Below are positions 20,754-25,404 of a stretch of DNA of 60,731 nucleotides, piece by piece. The notes under the pieces were generated by a model. The model was given only the letters and a program-made list of their open reading frames with translations. It was not told the origin of the DNA and did no database searches. Source of the DNA: a virus; the UHGV virus genome UHGV-1514873; one strand, given 5' to 3'. Numbering within the stretch: position 1 is the first letter of the stretch; every line of letters begins with the position of its first letter. A program made the translations under genes and the position numbers.

Positions 20754-21917
20754 TTACACATCATTAGTACCTTCCTTATTTTTTGACTGGGACAAATTTG
20801 GGACCGATGGGTTCAGGATCGAGTCTATTTGCCGTGCGTGTTCGGTAAGGTGATTAGGTGCAAGGTGAGCATATCGACGAACCATTTCGATAGACTCCCA
20901 GCCTCCCATTTCCTGTAACACTGACAACGGGACTCCGGCTTGAACCAGCCAACTTGCCCAGGTGTGTCTCAAGTCGTGAAATCTGAAATCATCAATACCA
21001 GCCCGTCTCAGCGCCGCTTTCCAGGCTGTGTTTGCGTCATACCGCATCTTCCTTACTGTTGGCGCTTTCGTTCCGTCTGGTTTGGTACAGCTTTCCTTGT
21101 ACACAAATACCCAACGGTGATGATTCCCGATTTGTTTTTTCAATACGCGACATGCAGTATCATTCAGCGCAACGCCAATTGCGCGGTTTGATTTACTCTC
21201 TTCCGGGTTTATCCATGCCACCCGGCGCTGCATATCTATTTGTTGCCATTCAAGGTTGATGATGTTCGAGCGTCTTAAGCCTGTTGCCAGTGCAAATTCA
21301 ACAACAGACTTTAATGGCTCCGGACATTCATCAATCAGCCTTTGTGCTTCATGGGGCTCCAGCCAGCGGATCCGTTTATTCTTTGGTTGAGGCACTTTAA
21401 TAATTGGTGCCTTATCCAGCATTTTCCATTCACGCTCTGCGGCTCTTAGTAGGGCCTTTATAAATGAAAGATGCGTAGCCTTCGTTGCAACGGACGCTGG
21501 TTTTGGCGTGTATTCTGGAACAGGTTTCCCTTTTTTTCTGCATGCTTCTGCCCTGAGTTTCCAGTTTTCCTCATGACGCCGGTTCGTCATTTTCTGCATT
21601 GCTGAATAAATTTTTGATTCAGTAATGTCTCTTAGTTGCATTCCTGCGAAATGTTGAAGCCAGAATCCGATCCGGCTTTTGTCATCGTCCAGTGATTTTT
21701 TATGTGCTTTCTCTTCAAGCCACCTGACACACGCTTCCTCGAACGTTATATCAGGTATTTCACCAAGTTTGCTGACCCGCCATGCTTCAGCCTTTAGCTT
21801 GTCATGGAGTTCTGTCGCCTGCCTTTTGTCCTTTGTTCCAAGAGACTGTTTAAATCTTTTACCGTTCGGCAATGTGAAACTGGCGTACCATATTTCACCT
21901 CTGCGGAAGAGTGACAT
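20754..21917 (-). CDS. int: tyrosine integrase, P22 Int-like
   Basis: 387 aa, near-identical to P22 integrase as recalled ([46 protein letters not shown]...). Confidence 0.95.
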
Positions 21918-22449: not shown

Positions 22450-22811
22450 TATGCTCCAGCCTCCGGTGCTTTTGGCATTACTGCCCAGTGAGTGATATTG
22501 ACGTTTTCAAGGTCCCCGATCTGAAATGTCCACTGCCATTCTCCGGTTTCTTTTTGTCCCCAGGTGTACCAGAGAGAACGCCAGCCAATTAGCCAGCCTT
22601 CTCCGTTAGCATCGAATAACAAAACACTTTCATTTGCTGGTGGCAGTTCAGTTGACACTGGTATTACTTTGTTTTCCTGTGCTGCACATTTAGCTTCAAG
22701 CGCATCGAATTTACGCACCAGGTATTCAGCATCCGTTTCATTCACTTTCAGATCTCGCGGTACACATCTCCCACGAAGAAACCCTTCCATTTCGAAAACA
22801 TTCATGCGCAT
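22449..22811 (-). CDS. DUF551-like prophage protein
   Basis: 120-aa W-rich C-terminus typical of a common enterobacterial prophage family. Confidence 0.5.
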   Translation of the reverse strand: MRMNVFEMEGFLRGRCVPRDLKVNETDAEYLVRKFDALEAKCAAQENKVIPVSTELPPANESVLLFDANGEGWLIGWRSLWYTWGQKETGEWQWTFQIGDLENVNITHWAVMPKAPEAGA

Positions 22812-23338
22812 TTGCGTAACTCCGATAATTCGTTAAAGCGTTCCATAAACATCCCGTAGGCATGGCCTGGAGCCAGTGGAATCACGTTGAACATCTCTGT
22901 TGCCGGGATACCTTCCAGCACAGGCCAGAAAGAGCCATCATCAAGCCCGAGATCGCGGCGTTCGGTTGCCAGCATAATGAGATCGGCATATTTCACTGGC
23001 GTGCTCATAACAGGAGGTAACCCGTATTTCTCACGGATTACGGCGTCTATTTTTTCTTCCATCCGTTTATAGTCAGGAAGAAGTCGTTTCAGTTGTGCGG
23101 GGATGTCCTGGCAATATGCTTCTGTTGCATCATGCATTAAAGCTTCAAAAGCAAATTCCTGCGGCACCAGCTGGCTGCAAAGCACCGCATGTTGGGCGAC
23201 ACTGTAGAAGTGTGAAAGATGTCCTGCAAAGCGACAGATATTTGAAAGGGAAACCGCGATATCGTTAATAACGATGTCGTCTTTATTTATCCTGTCATAA
23301 TAAAAATGCTTCCCGGAAAAAGTTTTAATAAATGACAT
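22802..23338 (-). CDS. HD-domain phosphohydrolase (YfdR-like)
   Basis: H..HD motif (VAQHAVLCS...ALMHDATEAY); ATG at 23338 with GGAG RBS preferred over GTG 23365. Confidence 0.7.
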   Translation of the reverse strand: MSFIKTFSGKHFYYDRINKDDIVINDIAVSLSNICRFAGHLSHFYSVAQHAVLCSQLVPQEFAFEALMHDATEAYCQDIPAQLKRLLPDYKRMEEKIDAVIREKYGLPPVMSTPVKYADLIMLATERRDLGLDDGSFWPVLEGIPATEMFNVIPLAPGHAYGMFMERFNELSELRKCA

Positions 23339-23365
23339 TTTGTTCTCCACGTATATGCGCTGCAC

Positions 23366-23880
23366 CGCGCTGAATTCGGGTAAAAGGAAGCCCTCACCGT
23401 CCGGCGGTTATTGAGTCAATTACATTTCCATAAATGCCCCCGTAGGGGCGGTTAGTTTCTCCACAAAACAGAGAAGAACACCTGCGGTGGCAGCCGCCCG
23501 GATGGATTGGGTTATGAGCCCGTCGTCCGGTGATGCTCTTCTCTGTTTTGTAAAAAGGACGGTACCAGCCGGAAGCAAGGGTACAAACTGGTACCGCCAG
23601 GACTACACACAGCATAAAGTTGTGGTGCCGGGTGCCTCCCGGTGCCTGGCGAAGGTTGCACACCAGGCGGGTGGGTATCCACAGAAGGTCGACTGTCAGC
23701 CTCAACCTTAACCCGCGTGCGCTGAGCCGCATTCACCACAACGCTAAGGATTCTCTCTGGTTGAAAATACTTAGCTGTTATGTGCCTGCTTTTAGCCACA
23801 TCAGGCGAGGTGGACCTAGTTATTCCCCAACAACAAGGATTCGGTTAATCTGGTTATCCCCAACAACGCAAAAGGAAAAG
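23366..23880. other. GC-rich structured non-coding segment (candidate ncRNA/regulatory leader)
   Basis: ~515 bp with no plausible ORF in any frame; several strong inverted repeats; degenerate direct repeats CCCCAACAAC...GGATTC. Confidence 0.3.
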
Positions 23881-23882
23881 AA

Positions 23883-24317
23883 ATGTCCGGTAATATCTAT
23901 ACGCTGTACAAATCCCACTGTGAAAATGTTGGAAAGTATCGGGGCATTGAAATCAGTGGGGTAGTGTCATCAGTCGAAATAAGCAAAGTTGAATCAAGGG
24001 CAACATTACTTACTCTTTTGGACCTTGTCTTACATGAGCACCGGAAGAAATTCGGCACTCCCTATAATCAGTTGAATGGGAAAAAGGCTCTGGTTCACCT
24101 TATTCTGATGAAGCATCACTGGATGCCAAAACAGATTAATGAGATGAAATTTGATGAACTTCTTCTTTCAATTCAGGATGAACTCACACTTGATAAAATA
24201 AGCGTAACCGCCCAGAAATTTTTAGATTATCGAGACTGGAGATCACAAATTCATCACTTTGATGATTTTGACGAAAATGAATGGGATCCTAATTTGTCTG
24301 CACAATATCTAAAGTAA
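23883..24317 (+). CDS. hypothetical protein (AT-rich moron, antisense to early-left transcription)
   Basis: 144-aa ORF with RBS aaaggaaaag; low GC; + strand terminator at 24554-24578. Confidence 0.55.
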   Translation: MSGNIYTLYKSHCENVGKYRGIEISGVVSSVEISKVESRATLLTLLDLVLHEHRKKFGTPYNQLNGKKALVHLILMKHHWMPKQINEMKFDELLLSIQDELTLDKISVTAQKFLDYRDWRSQIHHFDDFDENEWDPNLSAQYLK

Positions 24318-24495
24318 CATCCTGTGATAAAACCGTGATTTCCTGATCCAGTTTTTTTAAGGAGTCTATTGTTTCCTGTCGATAAGACAGCACTTCACGA
24401 AGCTGGTTTATAGCTGCCAGCTTCTTTGTCATCCACTCATAAATTTCCTCATCTGTGTAGCCAGGCGCGACGATTTTGGGTTCTGTTTTGTGCAT
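24289..24495 (-). CDS. hypothetical small protein, convergent with 23883-24317
   Basis: 68 aa from ATG 24495 with GAGGAG RBS; 3' ends of the two genes overlap by 29 nt. Confidence 0.45.
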   Translation of the reverse strand: MHKTEPKIVAPGYTDEEIYEWMTKKLAAINQLREVLSYRQETIDSLKKLDQEITVLSQDVTLDIVQTN

Positions 24496-24553
24496 TTCAC
24501 ATCTCCTCAAGTTATCAGTTACTTGTTGATGGGGACCAGATTGTTAAAGAGCT

Positions 24554-24578
24554 AAGCGTCCTGTAGGGCGCTTTTTTG
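24554..24578 (+). terminator. Rho-independent terminator (+ strand)
   Basis: agcgtcc/tgta/gggcgct hairpin followed by TTTTTTGTT. Confidence 0.55.
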
Positions 24579-24693
24579 TTGCTAACGAATCATCCTGGAC
24601 TTCATATGCCCCAGGCGGCTACTTCGTGGGCGTCCTGCCTGTTCGTTGTTTCGCTTGGGTACATTATGTATCTCAAAGGTACATTGTCAAGTA

Positions 24694-24729: not shown

Positions 24730-25404
24730 TTAGGCTTTGATTTTGTATCTTCTTGGTTTTCCTGAGAAAATCACTGTACCAATTATAGAGCAATTACCGT
24801 TGATCTTAATGTAAGGCTCAGGCCAGTTTGGGTTTAACGCTTTGAGATAACGCTGTGTCCCATCTTCTATCAACCTTTTGAAGGTGGTTTCGCCTGTATC
24901 GTGCATCAATGCAATAACGTCGTCACCGTGGCAGGCAGGTACTTCAGGATCGACAAAAATCATGTCTCCCGGGCGGTACTCATCAATCATTGAATCACCT
25001 ATCACCCGCAAGATATAAGTCATTTCCCCACAGGGTACAGGGCAGGGATACGTTTCTGCTGTGCTCAAATCAACCTCAGAATATCCAACTTCTTTCCATG
25101 CTCCGGCCTGTACCCATGATATGACAGGGACTAATGTGATTTGTTTATTAGTGATTGAAACATCAGGTTTTTTTGTGATGTTCGTTGTCTGGTGTTCTTG
25201 ATCGAGCCATCCGACAGGCAGGTCGAAACATTTTTCGATGTGTCGTGCCATGCTGTCACCGATATTTTTAGTAGCACCATCTCCCATAAACCTGCTGGTC
25301 TGGGTTGGCTCGCGATCAATCATAGTGGCAAAGGAAGAATTCCCGCCAACACCATCTCTCAGTTTTCTGGCGTTAGACCGCCGGATGTCATGGATTGTTT
25401 TCAT
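24730..25404 (-). CDS. CI-like repressor (HTH + LexA-like S24 peptidase domain)
   Basis: 224 aa; C-terminal S24-type segment (VIGDSMIDEYRPGDMIFVDPEV); divergent from cro. Confidence 0.8.
   Translation of the reverse strand: MKTIHDIRRSNARKLRDGVGGNSSFATMIDREPTQTSRFMGDGATKNIGDSMARHIEKCFDLPVGWLDQEHQTTNITKKPDVSITNKQITLVPVISWVQAGAWKEVGYSEVDLSTAETYPCPVPCGEMTYILRVIGDSMIDEYRPGDMIFVDPEVPACHGDDVIALMHDTGETTFKRLIEDGTQRYLKALNPNWPEPYIKINGNCSIIGTVIFSGKPRRYKIKA

What the first reader, a model, noticed from the sequence alone, without database searches (positions are those of the whole stretch)
23339..24600. GC-rich structured non-coding segment plus convergent overlapping gene pair beside the repressor
Between the HD-hydrolase gene and cI lies ~515 bp (23366-23880) with no plausible ORF; all four ORF-track hits translate to R/P/C/W-rich nonsense. 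It is GC-rich, unlike most intergenic DNA here. It holds several inverted repeats (caaaacagagaaga...tcttctctgttttg; gcccccgtaggggc; gcctggcg...caccaggc) and degenerate direct repeats (accacaacgctaaggattc / ccccaacaacaaggattc / ccccaacaacgc). Directly downstream is an AT-rich 144-aa gene on the + strand, antisense to early-left transcription, converging on and overlapping by 29 nt a 68-aa minus-strand gene, with a + strand terminator at 24554-24578. This is the position where lambdoid phages carry exclusion/defence modules such as rexAB and sieB. I could not match the proteins to any family; a structured RNA plus small-protein module is my best hypothesis.
Basis: partly seen in the sequence, partly recalled or inferred. 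Interest (0 to 1): 0.65.

Follow-up and report, generated by a model that had tools for sequence, protein, structure and literature searches.

The report
Prophage early-operon leader RNAs plus moron
The GC-rich "empty" stretch is a real, conserved, structured non-coding RNA region of a prophage's leftward early operon, made of a small-RNA gene of the STnc100/KilS/DicF kind and an undescribed leader element. The two small genes beside it are separate, swappable units of unknown function, not parts of one defence module.

Summary
Window 23366-23880 is GC-rich (0.53-0.57), non-coding and structured, and its functional strand is the minus (PL) strand.

It has three independently recombining modules:
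- **sRNA unit (23772->23552).** A roughly 145-nt multi-helix domain related to Rfam STnc100 (43.1 bits, cut-off 47; strong covariation). It is followed by a single-stranded seed identical to K-12 Rac sRNA KilS, then a KilS/DicF-type intrinsic terminator.
- **Module A (23551->23453).** A covarying three-way junction with no Rfam family, absent from K-12. It carries 14 nt identical to the anticodon arm of initiator tRNA.
- **Module C (23775-23867).** The upstream region shared by plus-strand genes that sit in the sieB slot.

The 144-aa gene belongs to the ECs1072 family. It is all-alpha, has no structural or defence-database match, and behaves as a moron. The 68-aa gene is the first PL gene.

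The "+ strand terminator" is part of a conserved PL-leader cassette: structured element, hairpin, then an exact rrn-type boxA.

PGAP's "frameshifted pseudogene" call over this region is an annotation artefact.

Verdict: structured RNA confirmed; a unified RNA-plus-protein exclusion module is not supported. I rate it a new variant of a known kind, of moderate interest.

The parts
23607..23772 (-). STnc100-like multi-helix 5' domain of the sRNA. The closing helix is GUUGUGGUG/CACCACAAC. Inside are the hairpins GCGGCUCAGCGC, CCUGGUG..CGCCAGG and CCGGG-AGGCA-CCCGG, plus a 5' hairpin at 23743-23775.
   Evidence: Rfam STnc100 (RF02076) hit at 23772->23550: 43.1 bits (cut-off 47), E 1.3e-7. Consensus structure on 32 sequences: 95.3% of cells paired and 95 double-change cells, against 6-15 when the partners are slid. 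The single-sequence fold agrees, z = -3.9.
23601..23614 (-). Single-stranded seed UGCUGUGUGUAGUC, the same as in E. coli K-12 Rac sRNA KilS.
   Evidence: A 21-nt run, TGCTGTGTGTAGTCCTGGCGG, is identical to KilS (b4833); overall identity is 53/67. The seed is conserved while the terminator stems differ in ST64B, phiES15 and Klebsiella/Raoultella prophages.
23552..23600 (-). Intrinsic terminator of the sRNA (GGCGGUACCAG...CUGGUACCGUCC UUUUU), of the KilS/DicF type.
   Evidence: Inverted repeat I3. Homologues have different, compensating stems, each followed by a U-run. 132 of 134 module-A loci carry a T-run immediately upstream.
23453..23551 (-). Module A: a three-way-junction leader element. 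It has a long outer helix, a CCGGA/UCCGG helix enclosing GGGCUCAUAACCC, and a variable hairpin, followed by unpaired GGAGAAAC.
   Evidence: Inverted repeat I1. 132 copies, 80 distinct sequences over a 144-nt extract; trimmed to the element itself, 131 copies give 62 distinct sequences. On 26 representatives: 32 consensus pairs, 9 of them with compensatory changes. Fold z = -4.85. 14 nt are identical to the metZ initiator-tRNA anticodon arm. No Rfam family matches.
23436..23449 (-). Short GC hairpin between module A and the HD gene. In relatives this position holds a hairpin with a UGCAG loop, followed by the yfdP start.
   Evidence: Homology to SfIV/mEp460 ends at about 23446. SfII and SKA5 share the window's arrangement.
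23775..23867 (.). Module C: the upstream region shared by the plus-strand genes of the sieB slot. It contains two overlapping, covarying helices and the TCCCCAACAAC direct repeats.
   Evidence: Matches Klebsiella phages and lies directly upstream of the Hafnia phage sieB. Alignment with Rac sieB, phiES15 and Kp4866 shows GCCTG/CAGGC against CCCGG/CCGGG. The repeats are D2. No sigma-70 consensus promoter was found.
23883..24317 (+). 144-aa ECs1072-family protein: a moron in the sieB slot, antisense to PL transcription.
24289..24495 (-). 68-aa protein, the first ORF of the PL operon. It overlaps the 144-aa gene convergently by 29 nt.
   Evidence: phrog_1744, E 6e-35. 54 homologues, all annotated as hypothetical. 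The position corresponds to ydaF/ydaG in Rac and ydfA in Qin.
24541..24573 (-). Hairpin AAGCGCCCUACAGGACGCUU followed by an exact rrn-type boxA, GCUCUUUAACAA (24552->24541). On the + strand the same hairpin reads as a terminator.
   Evidence: The cassette is conserved with varying hairpin loops in 17 distinct leaders that have different operators and downstream genes. The same boxA lies upstream of gene N in Hafnia phage Pocitis76.
24585..24647 (-). Conserved structured element at the 5' end of the PL transcript: a closing helix CGAAC../..AUUCG with inner hairpin CCUGG/CCAGG.
   Evidence: Conserved in ST64B and in many IMG/VR and GTDB prophages, with compensatory changes.
24663..24690 (-). PL promoter candidate, TTGACA-16-CATAAT, flanked by gtac-type operator repeats.
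   Evidence: 11 of 12 consensus matches. A cI terminator lies at 24718->24699.

Best explanation
Window 23366-23880 is the untranslated leader of the prophage's leftward early (PL) operon. It acts as RNA on the minus strand.

1. **A roughly 220-nt small RNA.** Its 5' domain is an STnc100-type multi-helix fold. That is followed by an unpaired seed identical to Rac KilS, then a U-tailed terminator. This is the standard layout of Hfq-dependent base-pairing sRNAs. The locus matches the position of KilS (before kilR in Rac) and DicF (before dicB in Qin). The RNA would arise either from a local promoter in the lysogen or by termination and processing of PL transcripts. It would regulate host mRNAs in trans (inferred).

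2. **The terminator as a gate.** It would also gate the downstream early-left genes. PL transcripts carry a conserved 5' structured element, a hairpin and an rrn-type boxA. These may make RNA polymerase resistant to termination, so that induced phage reads through (inferred).

3. **Module A.** Downstream of the terminator is a conserved three-way-junction 5'-UTR element. In relatives it precedes yfdP-yfdQ-yfdR; here it abuts yfdR. Its function is unknown, most likely cis control of translation or processing.

4. **The proteins.** The 144-aa plus-strand gene is an independently acquired moron in the sieB slot, antisense to PL. The 68-aa gene is simply the first PL ORF.
For: Shown directly:
- Non-coding.
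- Strand-specific structure.
- Covariation in the STnc100-like domain.
- Rfam similarity to STnc100 in the window and in three relatives. One relative passes the Rfam cut-off.
- Seed and terminator identity with the annotated K-12 sRNA KilS. KilS was detected by Hfq RIL-seq and northern blot and has its own transcription start (PMC8175672).
- The same STnc100-like motif lies between DicF and dicB and between KilS and kilR.
- Synteny cI / small ORFs / antisense sieB-slot gene / sRNA / early-left genes is shared by Rac, Qin and the window.
- 5' domains and seeds are swapped among relatives, while the terminator plus module A stay constant.
- STnc100 and PasD are reported as Hfq-bound prophage sRNAs (bioRxiv 10.64898/2026.05.13.724894; PMC12711010).
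- The boxA cassette is conserved independently of immunity type.
Against: - No expression data exist for this locus.
- No consensus promoter was found just upstream of the sRNA.
- The STnc100 score is below Rfam's cut-off. Canonical STnc100/PasD sit in the late region, not the early-left one.
- In Rac and Qin the STnc100-like motif is a leader without a terminator, placed downstream of the sRNA. The domain may therefore have a cis role rather than being part of an sRNA.
- Predicted pairing of the seed with the reported KilS target yncL is only marginally better than shuffled seeds (p about 0.07).
- Antitermination by the PL cassette is inferred from boxA alone. No sequence similarity to HK022 putL was found.
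Confidence: 0.6

Rival explanations
1. The whole segment is purely cis-acting. It would be an attenuator or processing leader that sets how much PL transcription and translation reaches the early-left genes, with no trans-acting sRNA function.
For: - The STnc100-like motif occurs as a terminator-less 5' UTR directly before kilR, dicB, kil and other ORFs.
- Module A always lies between a terminator and the next gene's ribosome-binding site.
- kilR is known to be controlled by Rho/NusG-dependent termination upstream (PMC5793797).
Against: - The seed is conserved as an unpaired stretch, identical to that of a validated Hfq sRNA, while the flanking stems drift.
- Seeds are exchanged as units among relatives, as expected for trans-acting specificity.
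Confidence: 0.25
2. The structured RNA, the 144-aa protein and the 68-aa protein together would form one exclusion or defence module, for example an RNA-antitoxin or RNA-guided system.
For: - The position equals the sieB/rex slot.
- The 144-aa gene is antisense to PL and convergently overlaps the 68-aa gene. P0070, a 38%-identical homologue, shows the same convergent arrangement beside cI; sal3 shows it with an uncompared 138-aa gene.
- The 144-aa family has conserved R54, H72 (invariant here), W80 and W134 (invariant here).
Against: - The components do not co-vary in occurrence. The RNA modules occur without either protein (mEp460, ST64B, Stx2 phages, phiES15).
- The 144-aa family also occurs between Q and holin, without the RNA.
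- There are no PADLOC, Pfam or fold matches.
- The RNA is on the other strand.
Confidence: 0.08
3. The GC-rich region is a decayed protein-coding gene, as in PGAP's 'frameshifted hypothetical protein' at 23420-23739.
For: - The PGAP pseudogene call.
- SfIV gp34 is annotated as a 226-aa ORF across the region.
Against: - The gp34 N-terminus is the same R/C/P-rich nonsense, fused in frame to the real YfdP-like protein. In K-12 that protein starts at MASERS.
- No frame is open across the homologues, and there is no third-position excess.
- Covariation supports RNA helices.
- ST64B and the Stx2 phage records leave the region unannotated.
Confidence: 0.02

Closest known systems
KilS sRNA of E. coli K-12 cryptic prophage Rac (b4833; Bar et al. 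2021, PMC8175672)
   Same: - An identical 21-nt seed-to-terminator junction, with 79% identity over 67 nt.
- An intrinsic terminator of the same type.
- The same locus: after the antisense sieB-slot gene and before the early-left genes.
- An STnc100-like motif is adjacent.
   Different: - KilS has a short 5' hairpin; the window has a roughly 145-nt STnc100-like domain in its place.
- In Rac the STnc100-like motif follows KilS and leads into kilR.
- The window has module A and an HD-hydrolase gene downstream instead of kilR.
STnc100 (Rfam RF02076) / PasD / EcOnc27 prophage Hfq-binding sRNAs
   Same: - The closing helix GGUG...CACC, the hairpin CCGGG-AGGCA-CCCGG and the overall multi-helix layout.
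- A 3' terminator.
- Full-length match to the model (positions 1-206).
   Different: - The score of 43.1 is below the cut-off of 47.
- The internal hairpins differ.
- Canonical copies lie in the late region (near Q, stx, esterase), not in the PL leader.
- The seed region is different.
DicF (Rfam RF00039) of prophage Qin, within the dicB operon
   Same: - An sRNA embedded in the repressor-controlled early-left operon.
- A terminator beginning UGGCGGUAYCAGUUU.
- It is produced by termination and processing (Faubladier et al. 1990, from my own knowledge).
- It is adjacent to the same STnc100-like motif.
   Different: - Rfam score of 15.7 against a cut-off of 48.
- A different seed.
- The order of sRNA and motif is reversed.
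HK022 put RNAs and lambda/rrn nut-boxA antitermination sites (relevant to the PL-leader cassette at 24541-24647)
   Same: - A structured element of about 65 nt immediately after PL.
- An exact rrn-type boxA, GCUCUUUAACAA, with a neighbouring hairpin.
- No N gene was recognised in this phage.
   Different: - No sequence similarity to putL.
- The hairpin precedes boxA (rrn order), rather than following it as in lambda nut.
- Function is untested.
sieB / rexAB lysogen-expressed exclusion genes (relevant to the 144-aa gene)
   Same: - The same slot and orientation.
- An upstream region shared with sieB genes of other phages.
- Low GC content and a moron-like arrangement.
   Different: - No sequence or fold similarity to SieB or Rex.
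- No Pfam, PADLOC or solved-structure match. The AlphaFold model is all-alpha; whether the protein is soluble or membrane-bound was not tested.
- No phenotype is known.

Membership tests
Rfam STnc100 (RF02076) | Covariance-model score at or above the curated gathering score (47 bits) | tested here: not met
   43.1 bits, E 1.3e-7 on the sub-region and 5e-6 on the whole window. Relatives score 35-41 bits. One Pseudescherichia copy reaches 47.8 bits.
Rfam STnc100 (RF02076) | Shared secondary structure: closing helix, internal hairpins, AGGCA-loop hairpin, 3' terminator | tested here: met
   The match covers the full model, positions 1-206. Helices are supported by covariation in 32 sequences.
Rfam STnc100 (RF02076) | Hfq-bound stable transcript | not testable with these tools
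   No expression or binding data exist for this locus. Only literature on the canonical copies is available.
KilS sRNA (b4833) | Seed and terminator sequence | tested here: met
   21 of 21 nt identical at the seed/terminator junction, and 53/67 overall. See also the alignment.
KilS sRNA (b4833) | Position in the early-left operon leader, downstream of the antisense sieB-slot gene | tested here: met
   The Rac map compared with the window map.
KilS sRNA (b4833) | Full-length similarity, including the 5' hairpin (GGGAGUGCGCCUCC) | tested here: not met
   The 5' part is replaced by the STnc100-like domain.
DicF (RF00039) | Covariance-model score at or above 48 bits | tested here: not met
   15.7 bits, E 2.9, at 23557-23611. 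Only the terminator resembles DicF.
tRNA gene | Cloverleaf detectable by ARAGORN or the Rfam tRNA model | tested here: not met
   No tRNA in the window. Only 14 nt equal the anticodon arm of metZ.
HK022 put antiterminator RNA | Sequence or structure homology to putL/putR, and termination-resistant RNA polymerase | tested here: inconclusive
   Position and size are similar and the helices covary. BLAST finds no similarity to HK022 putL. Function is not testable here.
Lambda-type nut site with N protein | boxA followed by boxB, and an N gene downstream of PL | tested here: not met
   boxA is exact, but the hairpin lies 5' of it. The first PL ORF is an acidic 68-aa protein with no N-family match.
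Known anti-phage defence or exclusion proteins (PADLOC; SieB/Rex) | Profile match to a defence-system component | tested here: not met
   No PADLOC hit for either protein. No Pfam hit in 38 family members. No fold match.
NCBIfam NF033230 ECs1072 family phage-associated protein | Score at or above the curated cut-off (70 bits) | tested here: met
   157.8 bits over residues 4-144.

The most novel reading that the evidence does not exclude
Module A (23453-23551, minus strand) would be a functional mimic of the initiator-tRNA anticodon arm. It is a conserved three-way junction that displays GGGCUCAUAACCC, which is the three G-C pairs plus the CUCAUAA loop of tRNA-fMet. On early phage transcripts it would act as a decoy, sensor or operator for a factor that recognises that arm. 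Candidate factors are VapC-type initiator-tRNA nucleases, MetRS, and IF3 or the 30S P site.

If so, it would be a new class of phage leader RNA. It is present in many enterobacterial prophages (132 copies found in IMG/VR and GTDB) and absent from K-12.
Probability: 0.1. Interest if true: 0.8.

Novelty: new variant of a known kind. Interest (0 to 1): 0.5.

Why it matters
- It links three separately named prophage RNAs (STnc100/PasD, KilS, DicF) into one modular system. All sit at a fixed position in the early-left operons of enterobacterial lambdoid prophages, with 5' domains and seeds that can be exchanged.
- Some part of 23339-24600 matches in 3009 of 5426 complete E. coli genomes, and 409 carry at least 80% of it. 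The RNA part is mis-annotated as a pseudogene or as a fused ORF.
- It exposes two conserved RNA elements with no Rfam family: module A and the PL-leader cassette with boxA. K-12 lacks module A because of a deletion, which probably explains why it has not been noticed.
- These elements give testable hypotheses for how lambdoid phages with no recognised N gene read through early terminators, and for how lysogens make prophage sRNAs.

Tried and rejected
- **Rfam at gathering threshold, whole window.** No family.
- **ARAGORN on the window and four relatives.** No tRNA, despite tRNA-like fragments.
- **Protein-coding reading.** Rejected.
- **HK022 putL homology by BLAST.** None.
- **sigma-70 promoter scan for the sRNA and for the 144-aa gene.** Nothing beyond PL.
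- **Pfam, NCBIfam, PADLOC, PHROGs.** Only function-less families.
- **PDB profile search.** Nothing.
- **KilS seed against the yncL 5' UTR.** A 10-bp duplex is predicted but is not significant against shuffled seeds.
- **Window sRNA as PasB.** I considered this, but no supporting text was found.
- **Literature search for a tRNA-fMet anticodon-arm mimic in prophages, and for boxA in SfV-type phages.** Nothing specific.
Full report
**Setting.** The window carries an SfV/SfII/SfIV/ST64B-type lambdoid prophage. In a near-identical E. coli chromosome it sits beside tRNA-Thr and proA. The gene order around the finding is:
- int (20754-21917, -), then xis-like, yfdT-like and yfdS-like genes;
- the HD 5'-deoxynucleotidase yfdR (22802-23338, -);
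- the GC-rich gap;
- a 144-aa ORF (+), then a 68-aa ORF (-);
- cI (24730-25404, -), then cro and a cII-like gene (+).

A strong leftward promoter, TTGACA-16-CATAAT, lies at 24690->24663, just past the cI terminator. The 68-aa gene is therefore the first PL gene. Everything down to int lies in the leftward early operon, so the minus strand is the sense strand of the gap.

**Checking the observation.** All the described features are present at the stated coordinates: GC content, inverted and direct repeats, the 29-nt convergent overlap and the + strand terminator-like hairpin. The region is more structured than chance, but only on the minus strand: z = -5.6, against -1.95 for the plus strand.

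**It is not a decayed gene.** RefSeq annotates 23420-23739 (-) as a frameshifted pseudogene. SfIV gp34 is a 226-aa ORF spanning the homologous DNA. Translation shows that the gp34 N-terminus is the same R/C/P-rich string as the window's 112-aa ORF. It is fused in frame to a normal YfdP-like protein, which in K-12 starts at MASERS. Across 39 distinct homologues no frame stays open, and substitutions fall 293:300:337 on codon positions 1, 2 and 3.

**The segment is modular.** Database matches break it into blocks that recombine independently:
- Block A, about 23446-23599, is 95-97% identical in mEp460, cdtI and Stx2a/Stx2c phages.
- Block B, 23601-23813, is found in phiES15, ST64B and 118970_sal3.
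- Block C, 23775-23867, is found in Klebsiella phages and upstream of sieB in a Hafnia phage.

Of 5426 complete E. coli genomes, 3009 have a match to some part of 23339-24600, and 409 carry at least 80% of it. In relatives the order is cI, about 0.8 kb of unannotated DNA, yfdP, yfdQ (DUF2303), then yfdR. The window, like SfII, lacks yfdP and yfdQ.

**Block B is an STnc100-like RNA domain.** The only notable Rfam match in the sub-region is STnc100 on the minus strand, 23772->23550. It scores 43.1 bits against a cut-off of 47, with E 1.3e-7, and covers the full model. Homologous loci score 35-41 bits.

A pattern taken from the core retrieved about 35 enterobacterial loci. The 32 distinct sequences give a consensus of 24 pairs. 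95.3% of cells are paired, against 27-47% when the partners are slid. There are 95 double-change cells, against 6-15 when slid, and no shuffle out of 500 reaches the observed covariation score.

The same motif lies directly upstream of dicB in Qin (just after DicF), of kilR in Rac, of kil in phiES15, and of an ORF preceding isrK/C4. It is thus a general leader motif of prophage early-left operons.

**A KilS seed and terminator follow.** In the window the domain is followed by unpaired UGCUGUGUGUAGUC and then a U-tailed hairpin at 23600->23552. K-12 annotates the sRNA KilS between sieB and kilR. The window's tail is identical to KilS over 21 nt and 79% identical over 67 nt.

KilS was found by Hfq RIL-seq, confirmed by northern blot, and appears to have its own transcription start (PMC8175672). 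The terminator also resembles that of DicF.

Among 134 loci, nearly all have a terminator at this position, but three kinds of 5' domain and several seeds are exchanged. Structured 5' domain, conserved unpaired seed and variable terminator stems form the signature of a trans-acting Hfq-type sRNA. The single-sequence fold agrees. Literature describes STnc100, EcOnc27 and PasD as Hfq-bound prophage sRNAs and as relatives of one another.

**Block A is an undescribed leader element.** Immediately after the terminator lies a roughly 100-nt three-way junction. I found 132 copies. A 144-nt extract gives 80 distinct sequences. Trimmed to the element itself, 131 copies give 62 distinct sequences. On 26 representatives the consensus has 32 pairs, 9 of them with compensatory changes, and one hairpin of variable length. 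The fold gives z = -4.85.

It is followed by conserved unpaired GGAGAAAC. In relatives a hairpin with a UGCAG loop and the yfdP start come next. In the window a different hairpin and yfdR follow.

The inner hairpin GGGCUCAUAACCC shares 14 identical nucleotides with the anticodon arm of initiator tRNA metZ. The loop CUCAUAA occurs in 50 of the 62 distinct variants, but the search pattern biased this count. In the pattern-independent set, CAU is kept in all variants but one.

No Rfam family matches it. K-12 CPS-53 lacks it because of a deletion junction just upstream of yfdP.

**Block C and the proteins.** Block C is shared by the regions upstream of Rac sieB, Hafnia sieB, a Klebsiella sieB-like gene and the window's 144-aa gene. 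It has compensatory helix changes and paired direct repeats. No consensus promoter was found.

The 144-aa protein is a member of NF033230 and phrog_5286. Exhaustive search finds 65 cluster representatives. In the 38-sequence alignment, H72 and W134 are invariant, and R54 and W80 are nearly so. The high-confidence all-alpha model (pLDDT 93) has no significant neighbour in PDB or BFVD. There is no Pfam or PADLOC match.

Distant homologues sit antisense beside cI, or antisense between Q and holin. This is moron behaviour. The SfIV paper lists its orthologue only as a protein with no clear function. The 68-aa protein belongs to a narrow family of hypothetical proteins.

**The "+ strand terminator" re-read.** On the minus strand the hairpin at 24573->24554 is followed at once by GCUCUUUAACAA, the rrn-type boxA. 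It is preceded by a roughly 65-nt structured element at the 5' end of the PL transcript.

This cassette of about 115 nt is conserved in 17 distinct leaders whose operators and downstream genes differ. It shows compensatory changes, and the hairpin loop varies. The same boxA precedes gene N in a Hafnia phage.

The hairpin may still terminate plus-strand transcription. A second candidate for that role lies at 24399-24424. Its conservation, however, tracks the PL leader. No N homologue was recognised and there is no similarity to HK022 putL. An antitermination role is therefore inferred, not shown.

**Synthesis.** Shown:
- the segment is non-coding;
- it is structured on the minus strand;
- it is homologous to the STnc100 fold and to the KilS seed and terminator;
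- module A and the PL cassette are conserved and covarying;
- the pieces are independent of one another.

Inferred:
- the locus produces a KilS/DicF-type trans-acting sRNA;
- its terminator gates the early-left genes;
- PL-initiated polymerase reads through thanks to the boxA cassette;
- module A controls the next gene in cis.

The unified RNA-plus-protein exclusion module is not supported. The 144-aa gene remains a plausible but untested lysogen-expressed moron.

Noticed in passing
window 24541-24647 (minus strand): A conserved PL-leader cassette: a roughly 65-nt covarying structured element, an A-rich spacer, a hairpin and an exact rrn-type boxA, GCUCUUUAACAA. It is shared by prophages with different immunity regions and different downstream genes. 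It may be an N-independent antitermination signal.
   Followed up: partly
L055 2936-3100 (K-12 Qin, dicF-dicB spacer) and L054 2400-2240 minus (K-12 Rac, KilS-kilR spacer): The STnc100-like structured motif is present, unannotated, as the immediate 5' leader of dicB and kilR in E. coli K-12. Here it lies downstream of DicF and KilS rather than upstream of the seed.
   Followed up: partly
L003 about 3300-3560 (mEp460, minus) and L007 about 2830-3180 (Klebsiella phage Kp4866-6, minus): Another conserved non-coding block of about 300 nt lies upstream of the sRNA in these phages. Shared strings include GTATGGCACATGC, GGAATGTGCAAG and ACAACGATGAG. In Kp4866-6 and sal3 it ends in a tRNA T-arm-like GGTTCGATTCC. 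ARAGORN calls no tRNA. The block is absent from the window.
   Followed up: no
window 54493-54669 (+): A sub-threshold Rfam hit to IS009 (RF02111): 54.2 bits against a cut-off of 117, E 1.3e-9.
   Followed up: no
window 24399-24424 (+): A second plus-strand terminator-like hairpin, GAAGCTGG...CCAGCTTC followed by TTTGTC. It lies inside the 68-aa gene, 80 nt past the stop of the 144-aa gene, and may be the real terminator of that moron.
   Followed up: no
L182 7240-7640 (K-12 CPS-53, upstream of yfdP): CPS-53 has a deletion junction right before yfdP, so K-12 lacks module A and the sRNA. The K-12 yfdP start (MASERS) shows that SfIV gp34 and similar long ORFs are over-extended annotations.
   Followed up: yes
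L003 5644-5832, L004 5699-5887, L005 5732-5920: Relatives (mEp460, Stx2a_WGPS2, ST64B) carry an isrK plus C4 antisense-RNA pair, both above the Rfam cut-offs, inside the gene after the cII-like gene. The window has no such hit at the gathering threshold.
   Followed up: no
window 57216-57227 (+): A one-mismatch boxA-like sequence, GCTCTTTAATAA. At this mismatch level two matches in the window occur by chance in 6 of 100 shuffles.
   Followed up: no
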